64,000 nt of DNA from Styela clava (Eukaryota): the NCBI RefSeq assembly GCF_964204865.1, contig NC_135252.1, forward strand, positions 9,238,001 through 9,302,000. The letters run 5' to 3'. How positions within the stretch are numbered: the first letter of the stretch is position 1; each line of letters starts with the position of its first letter. Below, one piece after another: positions 30,001-54,000 of this stretch. Position numbers: made by a program.

Positions 30001-33000
30001 AATGCTACAATATTGCACATTTTTTTACTTCCTATTATACCACACTAACCAGAATATGCACTCAACCTGCTACATTTTTGCAATAAAATGTCTGTTATTT
30101 GAACTCCACAGTTATACTAAGTTTTGAGAGGTATGTAGAGTCAAATGCGACTTGATGGTCAATTTTTATATCTGAACATCTCATTAAACACAAATAGGAA
30201 TGCCTGGCGTGGCAGCACTTGAAGGATGAAAAAATTCAAGACTACAAATAGGACTTGAAATTTTGTATCTTGACTAGTAGAGACCTGATGAAAAGTCCCG
30301 TCAAATTGTTGCTTGTTAGGGGGCTTCACTTGGGATAGGATGACCCACATCACCATAGAATAAGTTTACTGGGGTGACGATAGAAGGAAGACATGATTAG
30401 GGATGTACGTTTCGAAATTTGATTCCCGAATAAGGATAACATCACACTATAGTTAACTTTCTTCAAATTTGGAAAAACTGTAGCGTAAATTGTGATTGAA
30501 TAAAAGTAATAAACTTGAAGAATTAAGTTAATATAAATAAATGGATGAATCAAGTACCCAATACAACAGAGAAATATGTATGCAAATGCATATTTACTTA
30601 TTACATGAATTTATGTTTGCAAACAATACCGGATGTATGGTGTTAGTCTTCAAAATGCATACGAATGATGAATGCCAGTGAAATGAGCATTAGAACGGTT
30701 TGCGCCCTAATTCAATAAAAGGAAACGATGGTGAGGGAAGTATAACAAATCCATGTTTTTAAAAGAAATTATGTCATTATTATAATAACATTATATAGGT
30801 CATTTATCTATATAATTAGGTACATATCTGTAAAACTTCCTAACATTTCAAGAAGGCGAAAAAAAAGATAAGCGAAACTATTGATTCCACTAAGGCCGTG
30901 CCTATGTGAAATATAACAACCCCCTGGACTGTTAAGACTTGGAAAAGCTGTAAAGCCAATAATCGCCTTTAGTCAATGTCGAGACAATGCCGCTGTGTCG
31001 TGCAATCACCTGGTGTTATATATATTTATTTTTAAACGAGGCCATTGTTTTCGGTAATTGCTTCGAAACGACATTTGATTCGAAATTCTGAAACTTATTT
31101 CCCTAGACATGATACGAGGTTATGTAAATAACTTGCCCGCATGTTGCATTTCACAATAGGAAAATTGTTCTAGGGAACATTGTACAAACACACAGAGCAG
31201 AAACGATGTATACAATTGTAAAGTTTTATTGAATTATAACACCAACACTTGAAGACAGTGAATTTATTTGTAATAGTGTAGAAACAATTGCATACTATGG
31301 ATAGGTAAAATAATTAAACTACAGTGAACACAAATACTAAAACAATGTTATGTCTGAAGAGGTTTTGCAAACCTTGGAGTGATATAAAAATCATTGGTAT
31401 CACCACTATAAAAATCCGTGATTCGGTGTGAGTAAAACTTTTGATATGAGATATCTGTAGTAGTTGTTTTTTAATATCCATAATTAAACTTCAGTAGTGA
31501 ATAAACATGCTGAAAACAATGCTTGTCTGAAAGTGTTTTAGAAACCTCTAAATGATATAAAAATCATTGGTAACACCATTTAAGAAAACCATGATTAGAA
31601 TTTGAAACTTTTGATTTGAGATATCTGTGGTAGTTGCTTCATAAACAAAAAGATAGGAAAAATTAATTTAGTCCTGTTTATATCCAGCCTGCAGTATTCC
31701 CATGAAGGCATTCATAGCGAGCAATCCAGTCACACAGAGATAACATATGATGCATGCTGATCCAGACCAAGCATTCCACAATATAAAGGCGGATGCAGGA
31801 ACATAAATCTTAAACAGAAAAATTGGAGGATGTTATTTTTCTCGGGCTTCCGAAACTGACAATTGGTATTAAAACCACCATAGGAAGATAATTTTGCAAT
31901 AATATTAATAACAGCAGTTAATTTTTATCTAGCTGAGTGGTTTCCAACCTCTTCAATATAATTGCAAAGATGTTATAGGTTATTGCTGATTTGGCCGCAC
32001 CTTGTCGTACACATTTATTCATATGCAGCATGAAGCATTGTGACAAGATATTATATTGTCGGTGCATTGAAAAAGCTAATTGTCCATGTGATGAAATGTC
32101 TGTATACGATTCTCAAAAATATTTAAGCAGTCGGTTTAAACTAAGTTTTGTAGAGAAGCTAATTTAATACAGGGACTGCAAGAATTAGGTGGTTCAAAAC
32201 TCCCCTTATAAAGCAAAGCTATTCAGTTTCAGAGTGAAGCCGTGTGTTAAGCGGAGCTATGCATAGTCAAAATAACTCACAAACAGGTGGAGTTGATTTC
32301 ATAGTTACCAAGAATCTCACCACTAGTTTTGACTTGAGAATGGATGCTACATCTTTATTCTTCTTGTAGCATAGAGAGGAAAGAGAAAGCAATGATCCTG
32401 CTAGAAGTTGAAATCCAAATGATCTCATGAAAACTTGACATACATCCGTGACTGGTGTGCTGAGGTTCTAAATAAGGAATATCGTTTCATTATGAAATTT
32501 GACCATTAAGAGAACAGTTATAATTTTGATACTCCCGTAGGGTTAGGTCATAATTTTATTTCGGTTTTCCCTATTTTATTTCTATTACAAGTTCTGGGAC
32601 TGTCTGTGTAAGCCAAGTGAATATACCCCCTGCCCATAGGCTTCAGTCCATTTACACAACTTGATGTAGGCGAACAAAATTATTCACCTCCATATTGGTA
32701 CACACACTTCTGGAACGCACTTCTACTTTGGTGTGGGATGTGGATGTGTAAATCAAACATAATGTTATGGTTATGACTCATTTTGCTAGTATGATTATTT
32801 TCAAGCCTTTGCCTCAAACAAGGCTTTATTCTAGTAGACATATATACTTGAATGAGTGTGAATGTTCAGATGTCACTGAATGGACAAAACCATAAAGTGG
32901 TTGTGGTCAAAACGGATGTTGTTTCTGTTGCATATCCTTAAACTAAACAACCTTGATTAGAAGTATTCCTAAATTACCAGAACTCATTCTGAAAGAATAT

Positions 33001-51000: not shown

Positions 51001-54000
51001 AATAATGCCTGTGTGAAAGATTACAGGATCTTCAAATCAGAGCAAAAAGATCTGGGCACTCAAAGATGAATTTGCTGTCACTATAAAAAAAATCCTGTAT
51101 GCATAGGTAAACATTTATTGTGTAACAAGTCTATTCAAAATGTGGTCACACAACAAACACACATAAAAAAAACGTTGTCCTTCGCAACCAAAGATATAAT
51201 GAGTATAATTAGCCATTATGATTCAGCCAAAACTGAAAATTGAAATCATAGAATACGAGGCTATAGCAGCTGTACCTAGATAAAAACAAATAGCATTCCC
51301 CATATAATTTATAATAAAGTATTAGCACTTACTTTTGATACATTTTTGGTGTAGTAGAGTCCATACAGAGTGCACATCAACAATGCGGCCCGAGACTGAA
51401 TAATAAGTATAGGTGATGGCAATGATTACACAAAAAGTACAATGTATTTTAAACGTTATATATATTATTACTAATTTTAGAATTTATCAATTTCATTACT
51501 TTTTGTATTTGATTTATTATTATTTGTATTTAATTGTGTTTGTTATATTATAATTAAAAAAATAATTTCTGTATATTATTGTACAAGAAATATTTATTTC
51601 ACCAATGATTATTCAAATGATATTATTCTTGAACTATGGTATATTGTCTATTAAAATCATTCATCCTACAGCTGCATGAGAGAAGACACCAGTTGCTAAT
51701 AAAAACCACATGGGAATCATACCATAATTCAAATTACGGCCTTATAAGGTGTGCACTAAATTTTGAATATACAGAGGTCAATAAATATTTTTTCCTCAAA
51801 TGGACATTTTTAAGAAGCAAAAGACTATTAGAAATTTGCCCATAATGAGAATTTATTAATAAATATAGATGAACTTTATTTACACATGAAATATCATTAA
51901 TGGTCAAAAAATGACAATTGACAAATACAGAACAGATGTCAAACCAATGCCATGATACTGACCAGAAAACATGACACAGTCATTTCTTTTGCTCAGAACA
52001 AAAAACTATTCCAGATTAGGCGAGTAAAATGTTAAAACAAAACTCACCAAGATATTCGTTGTTGATATGGCAATTGCTACAGTTGGGTCACGAGATCTCC
52101 TGGTCAAAAATAAGGCTGCAGTTTGAGAAACTTTTGCAAGAAGCATGATTCGTAACAGGAATATGCTGAGGCTATCGACATCATAATTAACCTAAAAAAA
52201 AATATTGTATATAAAATGATTTTTCCAAGCAGATCTATTCAATCTGTCAGTCTAGAATCAAAATGAAACCAAATATACTGTAAATTAGTGGAATATGATG
52301 AGCATGTCACGACTAAATAGTCAATCATACAAATGAGGAAAGTCTGAAAAATTTGTAAAATTGATTGCATAATATAACTCTATATTCCACTTTCGTAGAC
52401 TTGGAGGGGCTTATGTAGTTTCGTACCTAACATACTTCTAGTGGGCGTAGCATGAAAATTTTTTCGCGTATCAATCCTAACCCCCACTCGACTACACCAT
52501 CCAAAAATTACGTGATTACGACGTCACAGTGACGTAATAGAGCCCTTCAAACTATACGAACTGCCATCCAAGGCGCGCAAACGAGCACCCGAAATCGAAC
52601 AGTTATTTCTCTCGTTTTCTCGTCGCAACGATTCCGATGGGAGAGAGATCGATAACGTCAGTCAGTTCCTTATCGTCGGCGCCAATGCCATTTCGGTCGA
52701 TCGTGCTTATATTTGGCAAGCTCTATAACGTGATTGTGATGTCGTAGTGTTTTGATTTTTGGATAGCGTAGTCAGATGGGGGTTAGGATTGACATATCAA
52801 ATTTGTTATGCTACGCCCACTAGAAGTACGCTAGGTACGAAACTACACGAGACCCGACTTTGGGATCTTGACCTGAGCTATTTAGCACAGTACTGATTAC
52901 TGCTTGTCTGAGGCCTTGTTCATTGCATGTTGAAAACTTTATAAGAGAAGTTTTCTATACTTACATAAAAAGATATTGTGGTGCCAGCAAAGGGGATCAT
53001 GAGCAAGGACAAAACACCCAAGACAGTTTCCATGATAATCCAGTATTGACGATTACGAAGCACTTGTAGGTACAATGTCAAACCAAATCCAATAGCGATA
53101 AAGGCAAGAAATTTATACAAATCTCCCACTGCTTCAGTATCTTTTGCAGAAGTTGATCCTGTTTTGCCAGCCATTATGAATTTTATAACTTCTCTCAGAA
53201 AACAACTAATATACAAATACAATCTGTCATCAATTTGAAAAACATGTTTTTACATTTCTATCATTTACATACACAAAATACTATTATTTCTAGATCATTT
53301 CGAATCCAGAGAATATAGACTGGCTATATATATCTAAAAATTCATTAAAATACTATTTCAATTGCACCAATCTCAGAATTCTGTTATTTCAAAACCGCTT
53401 GCTAAATTTCTGCCTGTTTTTACAATTCAGCAATTTGTTACAAAAGCAGCAGGTGGCAACGTGGAGGCAAGGTTCACGTGTGACTAATACATAATTAAAA
53501 ATCATCGGTCATTGCCGAAGTCAATGAACATAGTACCGCACAGCAGTAACAATTGATCTGTTCCAATGCTTACTGGTTGTAATTAGATCGTATATTTCGA
53601 GCGCTTTGCGACAAATATTTTTATGTACAGATTACGACAACGCCAACTTTTTTGCCTAAAACACTTGGGCATAACAACTGTTGTTTGTACGTATCGTAAT
53701 GCACCTGCACCTGTTCGTAGCAACTGCTATCTACGTAAAAGCAGAATAGCATAAGTTATATTCACGCGGCTTGCGCATTCTTTCTATTTTTAGCAAACCC
53801 GGCGAAATTGCTGTTCAACCAATCGTATGACAGGCACGTTACAGTGTCAGCATTTTGGATACGCGAACACGCCCTATGAGCCGTTAAAAATACAAAATTT
53901 TTGTTCCATCAGAAGAAAAATATTCGTATAATAAATATCGAATAACGGATACAATTTTCGTCGTAAACATCTCTCTGCGCCGGCAAAGATGCCGCAATTA

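What the first reader, a model, noticed from the sequence alone, without database searches (positions are those of the whole stretch)
31668..53174. Tandem array of four intact, highly diverged paralogs of an uncharacterised multi-pass membrane protein
Seen: four head-to-tail minus-strand genes (A 53174-49624, B 46799-43541, C 40800-37355, D 34577-31668), each with six coding exons of matching size (64-71, 47-49, 20-21, 65-69, 43-49 and 46-52 codons), only phase-0 introns and no stops or frameshifts. The ORF track shows only fragments of them. Despite heavy divergence, polar residues near the predicted helices are invariant: E..L[GA], Q, NIL|xR, GD, GD[PS]..[FLW]H..[IV]D, FP, LS..[AS]LC[FY], D....LK.KL and NA. 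Inference: about 8-9 TM helices, and an old expansion under purifying selection with a conserved ligand-binding or catalytic site. The second half (e.g. ALAFPD, then a helix ending LSFASL) recalls the 4-TM TP53I11/PIG11 protein and DUF4345-type folds; this is recognition by eye, not a search result.
Basis: partly seen in the sequence, partly recalled or inferred. Interest (0 to 1): 0.72.

Follow-up and report, generated by a model that had tools for sequence, protein, structure and literature searches.

The report
Four tandem DUF8292 membrane-protein genes
Four neighbouring, intact but very diverged copies of a nine-helix membrane-protein gene sit in this sea-squirt (Styela clava) sequence; they are already annotated and belong to a catalogued family whose function nobody knows.

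Summary
Four head-to-tail minus-strand genes lie at 53174-49624, 46799-43541, 40800-37355 and 34577-31668. Each has six coding exons and five phase-0 introns, with AG/GT at 20 of 20 acceptors and 20 of 20 donors. Their exon translations equal four Styela clava RefSeq 'uncharacterized protein' records residue for residue (LOC120341927, -28, -32, -29). All four carry the collection's precomputed Pfam label PF26941, which the ESM Atlas names DUF8292; the nearest Atlas clusters are mollusc and nematode.

The paralogs are 31-40% identical. Synonymous sites are saturated (pS 0.71-0.78), and pN is lower (0.41-0.48) in 6 of 6 pairs. Two copies have closer relatives in other unnamed records, so the expansion is old.

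Models show nine membrane helices with the N-terminus outside. No solved structure or characterised family matches. The TP53I11 idea found no sequence support. The DUF4345 idea has only a structural lead for the C-terminal four helices.

Function is unknown. My inferred guess is a small-solute or ion carrier with a cytoplasm-facing polar pocket. The finding is ordinary and already catalogued.

The parts
49624..53174 (-). Gene A, ATG to stop; equals RefSeq LOC120341927 (P0003, 306 aa)
   Evidence: 306/306 residues match exon by exon
52965..53174 (-). A exon 1, 70 codons
52048..52191 (-). A exon 2, 48 codons, ends NIL
51333..51395 (-). A exon 3, 21 codons, starts SR
50758..50955 (-). A exon 4, 66 codons (GD ... 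GDP..H...D ... FP)
50466..50612 (-). A exon 5, 49 codons (LSFAALCF ... D....LKSKL)
49624..49782 (-). A exon 6, 52 codons plus TAA
43541..46799 (-). Gene B, ATG to stop; equals RefSeq LOC120341928 (P0001, 303 aa)
   Evidence: 303/303
46599..46799 (-). B exon 1, 67 codons
45750..45890 (-). B exon 2, 47 codons
45394..45456 (-). B exon 3, 21 codons
44440..44646 (-). B exon 4, 69 codons
44044..44190 (-). B exon 5, 49 codons
43541..43693 (-). B exon 6, 50 codons plus TAA
37355..40800 (-). Gene C, ATG to stop; equals RefSeq LOC120341932 (P0002, 288 aa)
   Evidence: 288/288
40609..40800 (-). C exon 1, 64 codons
40031..40171 (-). C exon 2, 47 codons
39510..39569 (-). C exon 3, 20 codons
38798..38992 (-). 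C exon 4, 65 codons
38120..38248 (-). C exon 5, 43 codons
37355..37504 (-). C exon 6, 49 codons plus TGA
31668..34577 (-). Gene D, ATG to stop; equals RefSeq LOC120341929 (P0004, 302 aa); the most diverged copy
   Evidence: 302/302; end branch 1.58
34365..34577 (-). D exon 1, 71 codons
33762..33908 (-). D exon 2, 49 codons
33326..33388 (-). D exon 3, 21 codons
33052..33249 (-). D exon 4, 66 codons
32321..32467 (-). D exon 5, 49 codons
31668..31808 (-). D exon 6, 46 codons plus TAA

Best explanation
SHOWN: the region holds four intact, spliced, head-to-tail genes of the tunicate Styela clava. They arose by old tandem duplication and encode 288-306-residue members of the uncharacterised animal family DUF8292 (PF26941). 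Each protein is predicted to have nine membrane helices: one leading helix followed by two four-helix halves.

INFERRED: the N-terminus is outside and the C-terminus is in the cytoplasm. The invariant polar residues are E49, Q93, N116, R120, D156, D174, D183, S233 and N292 (numbering of copy A). Most of them lie in the cytoplasmic half of the helices or in cytoplasmic loops, so they probably line one polar pocket open to the cytoplasm.

My committed guess is that the proteins are carriers or channels for a small polar solute or ion. I also guess that the four copies are kept because they differ in substrate, compartment, or the tissue and stage where they are expressed.

Confidence in the identity and anatomy is about 0.95. 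Confidence in the transport mechanism is about 0.3, and the figure below is for the whole statement.
For: Gene models:
- 24 of 24 exons are in frame, with AG/GT at 20 of 20 acceptors and 20 of 20 donors.
- Exon translations are identical to RefSeq proteins of Styela clava.

Family:
- PF26941.1 is the precomputed label on 6 of 6 hits.
- The Atlas calls PF26941 DUF8292. The three nearest feature clusters score 0.93, 0.92 and 0.90, and 92-99% of their members carry it.

Age and constraint:
- Amino-acid identity is 31-40%. pS is 0.71-0.78 and pN is 0.41-0.48 in 6 of 6 pairs.
- The four units share no DNA similarity at E<=1e-8.
- In the tree, C groups with P0011 (100/100) and A with P0005+P0006 (98/98).
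- 25 columns are invariant across 8 full-length members.

Fold:
- AlphaFold2 gives pLDDT 80.1 and pTM 0.76 for A, and 75.5 and 0.73 for D, with the same order of helices.
- Hydropathy shows nine segments.
- Atlas structure neighbours of half size fall on residues 40-160 and on 167-305. A bacterial 256-residue cluster covers 45-306 (TM 0.68 by query, 0.79 by target).

Topology:
- K+R summed over 8 members is 67 in loops 1-2, 3-4, 5-6, 7-8 and the C-tail, against 25 in the other five segments.
- N-terminal N-x-T sequons occur in 3 of 8 members.
- Helix positions of the invariant polar residues are listed.
Against: - No direct evidence of function exists. No transporter family matched by sequence.
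- No transporter family matched by structure. Atlas rows for MatE, DctM and MMPL have TM below 0.4. Foldseek against PDB gave 0 matches at E<=0.001.
- R120 lies slightly towards the outer half of helix 4, so the 'one pocket' picture is not clean.
- I could not see model coordinates, so clustering of the invariant residues in space was not tested.
- The two halves show no sequence similarity to each other (hhalign probability 0.4%), so an internal duplication typical of carriers is not shown.
- Expression in S. clava was not checked; no RNA-seq tool was available.
- The mollusc and nematode members were never fetched. The 'invariant' residues are therefore invariant only among 8 close, probably tunicate, sequences.
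Confidence: 0.3

Rival explanations
1. The proteins are membrane-embedded enzymes, for example a lipid- or polyprenyl-modifying transferase or hydrolase. They would act at the cytoplasmic leaflet, with the invariant acidic residues (D156, D174, D183, E49) holding a metal or substrate head group.
For: The invariant Asp and Glu residues lie at the cytoplasmic ends of helices 2, 5 and 6, with a conserved GDP..H...D stretch in the four window copies. The best Foldseek E-values are to MraY-type phosphotransferases, but they are not significant (E 0.032, TMq 0.24).
Against: No enzyme family matched by sequence or structure (0 matches at E<=0.001). The His of the motif is not invariant: it is Tyr in P0011. 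That weakens a metal- or His-dependent mechanism.
Confidence: 0.2
2. The proteins are non-catalytic membrane scaffolds or regulators, as is assumed for small 4-helix proteins of the DUF4345 or TP53I11 type. The conserved polar residues would serve helix packing or partner binding rather than a substrate site. The paralogs might assemble with each other.
For: The C-terminal four helices resemble, in predicted structure, a bacterial cluster partly labelled DUF4345 (TM 0.81 by target). One of 8 members gives a weak hit to the matching NCBIfam model (E 2.1).
Against: PF14248 and PF14936 matched 0 of 8 members. Nine invariant polar or charged residues in or next to the membrane are more than packing usually needs. 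No binding was tested.
Confidence: 0.2
3. One or more copies are decaying duplicates or annotation artefacts rather than working genes.
For: Copy D sits on a long branch (1.58 against a median of 0.52) and has the lowest identity in exon 6 (18% to A). A has no AATAAA or ATTAAA within 600 nt after its stop. I saw no transcript data for S. clava.
Against: None of the 24 exons has a stop or frameshift, and all splice sites are canonical. pN < pS in all pairs that include D. D keeps 25 of 25 family-invariant columns and folds to the same helix order.
Confidence: 0.04

Closest known systems
Pfam DUF8292 (PF26941), a family of unknown function
   Same: All four window proteins and their relatives carry this label in the collection's precomputed annotation (6 of 6). 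The nearest Atlas clusters (293-311 aa; Mollusca, Nematoda) are of the same size and carry it in 92-99% of members.
   Different: Nothing sets the window proteins apart from the family. They are distant from the mollusc and nematode members: neither the exon-4 profile nor the word-based searches reached any. The family has no known function, and I found no paper that names it.
DUF4345 (PF14248) / NCBIfam NF051484 'AGROH133_08824 family phage infection protein' (bacterial, about 127 aa, four helices)
   Same: The predicted fold of residues 167-300, the last four helices, matches: TM 0.81 by target, with 125 residues aligned.
   Different: There is no significant sequence match: Pfam 0 of 8, NCBIfam 1 of 8 at E 2.1. 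Only 27% of that Atlas cluster carries PF14248. It is less than half the length, bacterial, and of unknown biochemical function.
TP53I11 / PIG11 (Pfam PF14936)
   Same: Both are multi-pass membrane proteins.
   Different: PF14936 matched 0 of 8 members at E<=10 and 0 of 10 exon pieces at E<=1. The window proteins have nine helices. From recall, not from a call, TP53I11 is a much shorter protein of about four helices. No TP53I11 sequence was available from any tool for a profile-profile test.
Unnamed bacterial 256-residue cluster (Atlas, mostly Bacteroidota, no Pfam)
   Same: It is the best whole-protein structural neighbour: TM 0.68 by query and 0.79 by target over residues 45-306, that is helices 2-9.
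   Different: It has no name, no family and no function.

Membership tests
Pfam DUF8292 (PF26941) | Match to the family's profile at its curated threshold | tested here: met
   The collection's precomputed Pfam column lists PF26941.1 for 6 of 6 hits, including the four window proteins. This is the collection's own assignment. I could not repeat it, because the local Pfam copy lacks the model (0 hits for the same proteins).
Pfam DUF8292 (PF26941) | Likeness to recognised members in size and sequence features | tested here: met
   The Atlas feature search gave 0.93, 0.92 and 0.90 with 223, 216 and 209 of 256 shared features, to clusters of 293-311 aa with 92-99% DUF8292. 6 of the ten best hits that carry a Pfam family share a family or clan with the best of them.
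TP53I11 / PIG11 (PF14936) | Match to the PF14936 profile | tested here: not met
   0 of 8 full-length members at E<=10, 0 of 6 at E<=1, and 0 of 10 exon pieces at E<=1. HMMER's filters hide most matches above about E 0.1.
TP53I11 / PIG11 (PF14936) | Remote homology by profile-profile or fold comparison | not testable with these tools
   No TP53I11 sequence, profile or model could be obtained from a tool, and no AlphaFold DB library is on hand.
DUF4345 (PF14248) / NF051484 | Match to the family profile | tested here: not met
   Pfam 0 of 8 at E<=10. NCBIfam NF051484 matched 1 of 8 at E 2.1, which is not significant.
DUF4345 (PF14248) / NF051484 | Same four-helix fold | tested here: inconclusive
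   Atlas structure row 3: TM 0.81 by target and 0.37 by query on residues 167-300, but only 27% of that cluster carries PF14248. The tool warns that a high TM means little for short helical stretches.
Known transporter superfamilies (MatE/MurJ, DctM, MMPL/RND) | Sequence or fold match | tested here: not met
   No Pfam hit. Atlas TM by query is 0.28-0.38. Foldseek against PDB gave 0 matches at E<=0.001.
Any protein with a solved structure | Sequence or fold match to a PDB chain | tested here: not met
   The profile search of PDB sequences gave 1 match at E<=10 (4tkr_A, E 0.37). In Foldseek the best E was 0.032 and the best TM was 0.50 by query, 0.48 by target (8xqw_O, E 0.10).

The most novel reading that the evidence does not exclude
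DUF8292 would be an unrecognised class of nine-helix carrier or membrane enzyme of invertebrates, with no solved structural relative. It would be built from a leading helix, a novel four-helix half, and a DUF4345/TP53I11-like four-helix half that animals share with bacteria. Its active pocket of Glu, Arg, Asp and Asn residues would face the cytoplasm. The four long-diverged Styela copies would be sub-functionalised, or even co-assembling, subunits. If the link to TP53I11 held, it would also give that poorly understood p53 target its first mechanistic relatives.
Probability: 0.12. Interest if true: 0.55.

Novelty: already known. Interest (0 to 1): 0.27.

Why it matters
As it stands it matters little. 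The genes are already in RefSeq and the family is already in Pfam, and tandem arrays of diverged paralogs are common in animal genomes.

It has modest value as a clean entry point to a family of unknown function:
- There are four intact copies with identical intron positions.
- A short list of invariant polar residues is available to mutate.
- The fold is confidently predicted and has no solved relative.
- The host is an experimentally tractable tunicate.

If the structural hint towards DUF4345/TP53I11 were confirmed, it would connect three uncharacterised families.

Tried and rejected
- **Exon-wise Pfam search.** 10 exon-bearing ORF pieces (5 of A, 2 of B, 2 of C, 1 of D) gave only chance-level rows, E 0.054-0.16, all far below cut-off.
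- **Pfam on six full-length records.** Nothing was found, because the local copy lacks PF26941.
- **Reaching the mollusc and nematode members.**
  - The exon-4 profile against 1.84 billion representatives gave 15 hits at E<=0.001. I take 10 as relatives (P0001, P0002, P0004, P0005, P0007-P0011, P0014).
  - I set aside the other five (P0012, P0013, P0015-P0017; 799-2097 aa, 3-12 short stretches) as probable chance or low-complexity matches, without fetching them.
  - The full-length profile gave 4 hits among 8000 scored candidates and missed even some of its own rows.
  - Copy A residues 40-306 at E<=10 gave 3 hits.
- **Internal duplication.** hhalign of the two halves gave probability 0.4% over 6 columns, so this was rejected at the sequence level.
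- **PDB by sequence and fold, BFVD by fold.** Nothing was significant. The one PDB chain with TM 0.5 (8xqw_O) could not be named. The preprint I looked at (10.1101/2024.09.02.610899, five passages seen) does not mention that entry.
- **Bacterial genome scan with the family alignment.** The tool found no stretch conserved enough. I did not pursue it, since a single protein would find only close relatives.
- **Cluster look-up for accession numbers.** The database was switched off.
- **Shared promoter motifs.** No k-mer of 8 or more is common to the four 600-nt upstream regions, and 4 shared 7-mers compare with 2.8 expected.
- **dN/dS.** A proper estimate was abandoned because synonymous sites are saturated.
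- **Binding.** No complex prediction was run, because I make no binding claim.
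Full report
**What the window is**

The window is AT-rich: GC is 0.28-0.41 in 2-kb steps. It has no N, no tRNA and no Rfam match. A profile of the fourth exons found four NCBI proteins of the tunicate Styela clava on a 25.6-Mb contig, one of them 100% identical to copy A. 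I therefore take the window for Styela clava, not human.

**Checking the observation**

Stop-to-stop frames on the minus strand and a scan for in-frame AG and GT sites recover five of the six exons of each gene. The short third exon was found separately in each gene as a piece of 20-21 codons, flanked by a pyrimidine-rich AG acceptor and a GTAAG donor and beginning xR.

With the final boundaries:
- 24 of 24 exons are multiples of three.
- 20 of 20 acceptors are AG and 20 of 20 donors are GT.
- Introns are 76-773 nt.
- The three spacers between genes are 2824, 2740 and 2777 nt.

Instead I compared each exon's translation with the database proteins at the running offset. The four models cover LOC120341927 (306/306), LOC120341928 (303/303), LOC120341932 (288/288) and LOC120341929 (302/302) without a mismatch.

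Exon-by-exon alignments of the four copies show 18-50% identity to copy A and 45 invariant columns in all. In some searches the tool's table-11 reading shows M for a first CTG or TTG codon; the RefSeq proteins have L there.

tblastn with seven family proteins found no fifth copy or stray exon in the window.

**What the proteins are**

Searched exon by exon, Pfam gave nothing. The full-length RefSeq records also gave nothing in the local Pfam copy. However, the protein collection's own precomputed column lists PF26941.1 for 6 of 6 hits. The ESM Atlas names PF26941 as DUF8292 (Pfam 38.1). Its three nearest clusters by sequence features score 0.93, 0.92 and 0.90, hold proteins of 293-311 residues, and are commonest in Mollusca, Nematoda and Nematoda.

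The genes are therefore already-annotated members of a curated family of unknown function. I found no paper holding 'PF26941', 'DUF8292' or any of the four LOC numbers (0 papers each).

**How far the family reaches**

The exhaustive profile search with exon 4 gave only 15 proteins at E<=0.001 among 1.84 billion representatives.
- I take ten as relatives.
- I set aside the other five, long proteins with many short matched stretches, without inspecting them.

The word-based searches added nothing, so the mollusc and nematode members stayed out of reach. The 'invariant' residues below are invariant only among eight close sequences.

Four short hits (70-100 aa; P0007, P0008, P0010, P0014) are single exon-4-like pieces. 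In three of them (P0007, P0008, P0010) a Val codon, which begins GT, follows the point that aligns with the end of the S. clava exon. This is what a read-through donor at a conserved intron position would look like; that is my inference.

Three full-length relatives sit as uninterrupted frames on contigs of only 2.1-3.0 kb. Given five introns in S. clava, this suggests spliced transcripts.

**Age and selection**

- The four units share no DNA similarity at E<=1e-8.
- Nei-Gojobori counts, made per exon and summed, give pS 0.71-0.78, which is saturation, and pN 0.41-0.48 in 6 of 6 pairs.
- A corrected ratio exists for only 3 of 6 pairs (0.22, 0.35, 0.35) and should not be leaned on.
- In a maximum-likelihood tree of the eight full-length proteins, C groups with P0011 (100/100) and A with P0005+P0006 (98/98).
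- B, D and P0009 are unresolved, and D has a long branch.

If those records come from other species, at least the A/C split predates them. Intact frames, canonical splice sites, retained motifs and pN < pS all argue for working genes under constraint.

**Anatomy**

Hydropathy shows nine hydrophobic segments. AlphaFold2 with the eight-row alignment gives pLDDT 80.1 and pTM 0.76 for A, and 75.5 and 0.73 for D. Both show the same series of long helices and a disordered loop before the GDP motif.

Lys+Arg summed over the eight proteins is 67 in loops 1-2, 3-4, 5-6, 7-8 and the C-tail, against 25 in the other five segments. This gives an N-out, C-in topology, and three of eight members have an N-x-T sequon at the N-terminus.

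Under that topology:
- E49, Q93, D156, D183, S233 and N292 lie in the cytoplasmic half of their helices.
- R42, S103 and D174 lie in cytoplasmic loops.
- N116 lies mid-membrane.
- R120 lies slightly outward.

The Atlas structure search places half-size clusters on residues 40-160 and on 167-305. It places a bacterial 256-residue cluster on residues 45-306 (TM 0.68 by query, 0.79 by target). From this I read a 1+4+4 build. The two halves show no sequence similarity to each other.

**Comparison with known families**

No solved structure matches by sequence (best E 0.37) or by fold. Foldseek against PDB gave 0 matches at E<=0.001, with the best TM 0.50 to 8xqw_O at E 0.10. BFVD likewise gave 0.

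For DUF4345, Pfam is also negative (0 of 8). Two weak leads remain:
- An Atlas cluster of which 27% of members carry DUF4345 aligns to the last four helices, with TM 0.81 by target.
- One of 8 members gives E 2.1 to the matching NCBIfam model.

This is a lead, not membership. The only paper holding 'DUF4345' (PMC13274452) and the only one holding 'PF14936' (PMC11788884) were seen as search listings only.

**Mechanism**

Nothing here shows function. Nine invariant polar or charged residues, in or at the edge of the membrane and mostly on the cytoplasmic side, fit a substrate or ion site better than mere packing. I therefore commit, at about 0.3, to a small-solute or ion carrier or channel. A membrane enzyme and a non-catalytic scaffold follow at about 0.2 each.

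**Left open**

- RNA-seq support in S. clava
- my own run of the PF26941 model
- profile-profile and AlphaFold DB comparisons with TP53I11 and DUF4345
- model coordinates
- the distant family members
- cluster accession numbers (could not be made)
- anything in the closed contig collections

No supplementary files were consulted, and none bears on a claim made here.

**Verdict**

The family is catalogued, the genes are already annotated, and the function is unknown. Interest is low to moderate.

Noticed in passing
window 25119-25802 (+), Met at about 25155: A complete casein kinase II beta subunit sits in one uninterrupted frame (Pfam CK_II_beta, E 1.7e-77, profile 1-182 of 182). It is either an intronless gene or a retrocopy.
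   Followed up: partly
window 27107-28059 (+): These are exon-like ORFs of an IspD/CRPPA-like cytidylyltransferase. Only one piece hits Pfam IspD, at E 3.7e-4 and 20.7 bits, below the 27-bit cut-off.
   Followed up: partly
window 57324-63655 (-): A run of Arg/Ser-rich and Lys/Glu-rich ORFs includes one of 477 codons at 58627-60060. The two pieces I tested have no Pfam hit.
   Followed up: partly
window 17751-18119 (-): An exon encodes the NCD1 SAM domain of a NAB (NGFI-A-binding) type co-repressor (Pfam SAM_NCD1, E 2.4e-27).
   Followed up: no
window 2606-6396 (-): These are several exons of a sodium:solute symporter (SLC5-like) gene (Pfam SSF, E 2.7e-21 and 5.3e-16 on two pieces).
   Followed up: no
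window 18282-19104 and 52406-52856 (intron 1 of gene A): A repeat of about 440 bp matches in both orientations (84% and 70-78% identity), so it is palindromic, like a foldback or MITE-type element. It lies in locally GC-richer DNA. One copy sits inside the first intron of copy A.
   Followed up: partly
window 10088-10247 and 32540-32714 (intron 4 of gene D): This is a dispersed repeat of about 170 bp at 74% identity, with one copy inside an intron of copy D.
   Followed up: no
window 15579-15664 and 20745-20830: An 86-bp inverted pair at 97.7% identity brackets about 5 kb that holds the NAB exon and the palindromic repeat. It may be the ends of a mobile element.
   Followed up: no
window 44874-45149 (intron 3 of gene B) and 31310-31639 (just downstream of gene D): Two local tandem duplications of about 130 and 160 bp, at 70% and 77% identity.
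   Followed up: no
window 34578-37354, 40801-43540, 46800-49623: The three spacers between the four genes are nearly equal in length (2777, 2740 and 2824 nt). Yet they share no detectable sequence and no upstream k-mer of 8 or more. I have no explanation, and it may be coincidence.
   Followed up: partly
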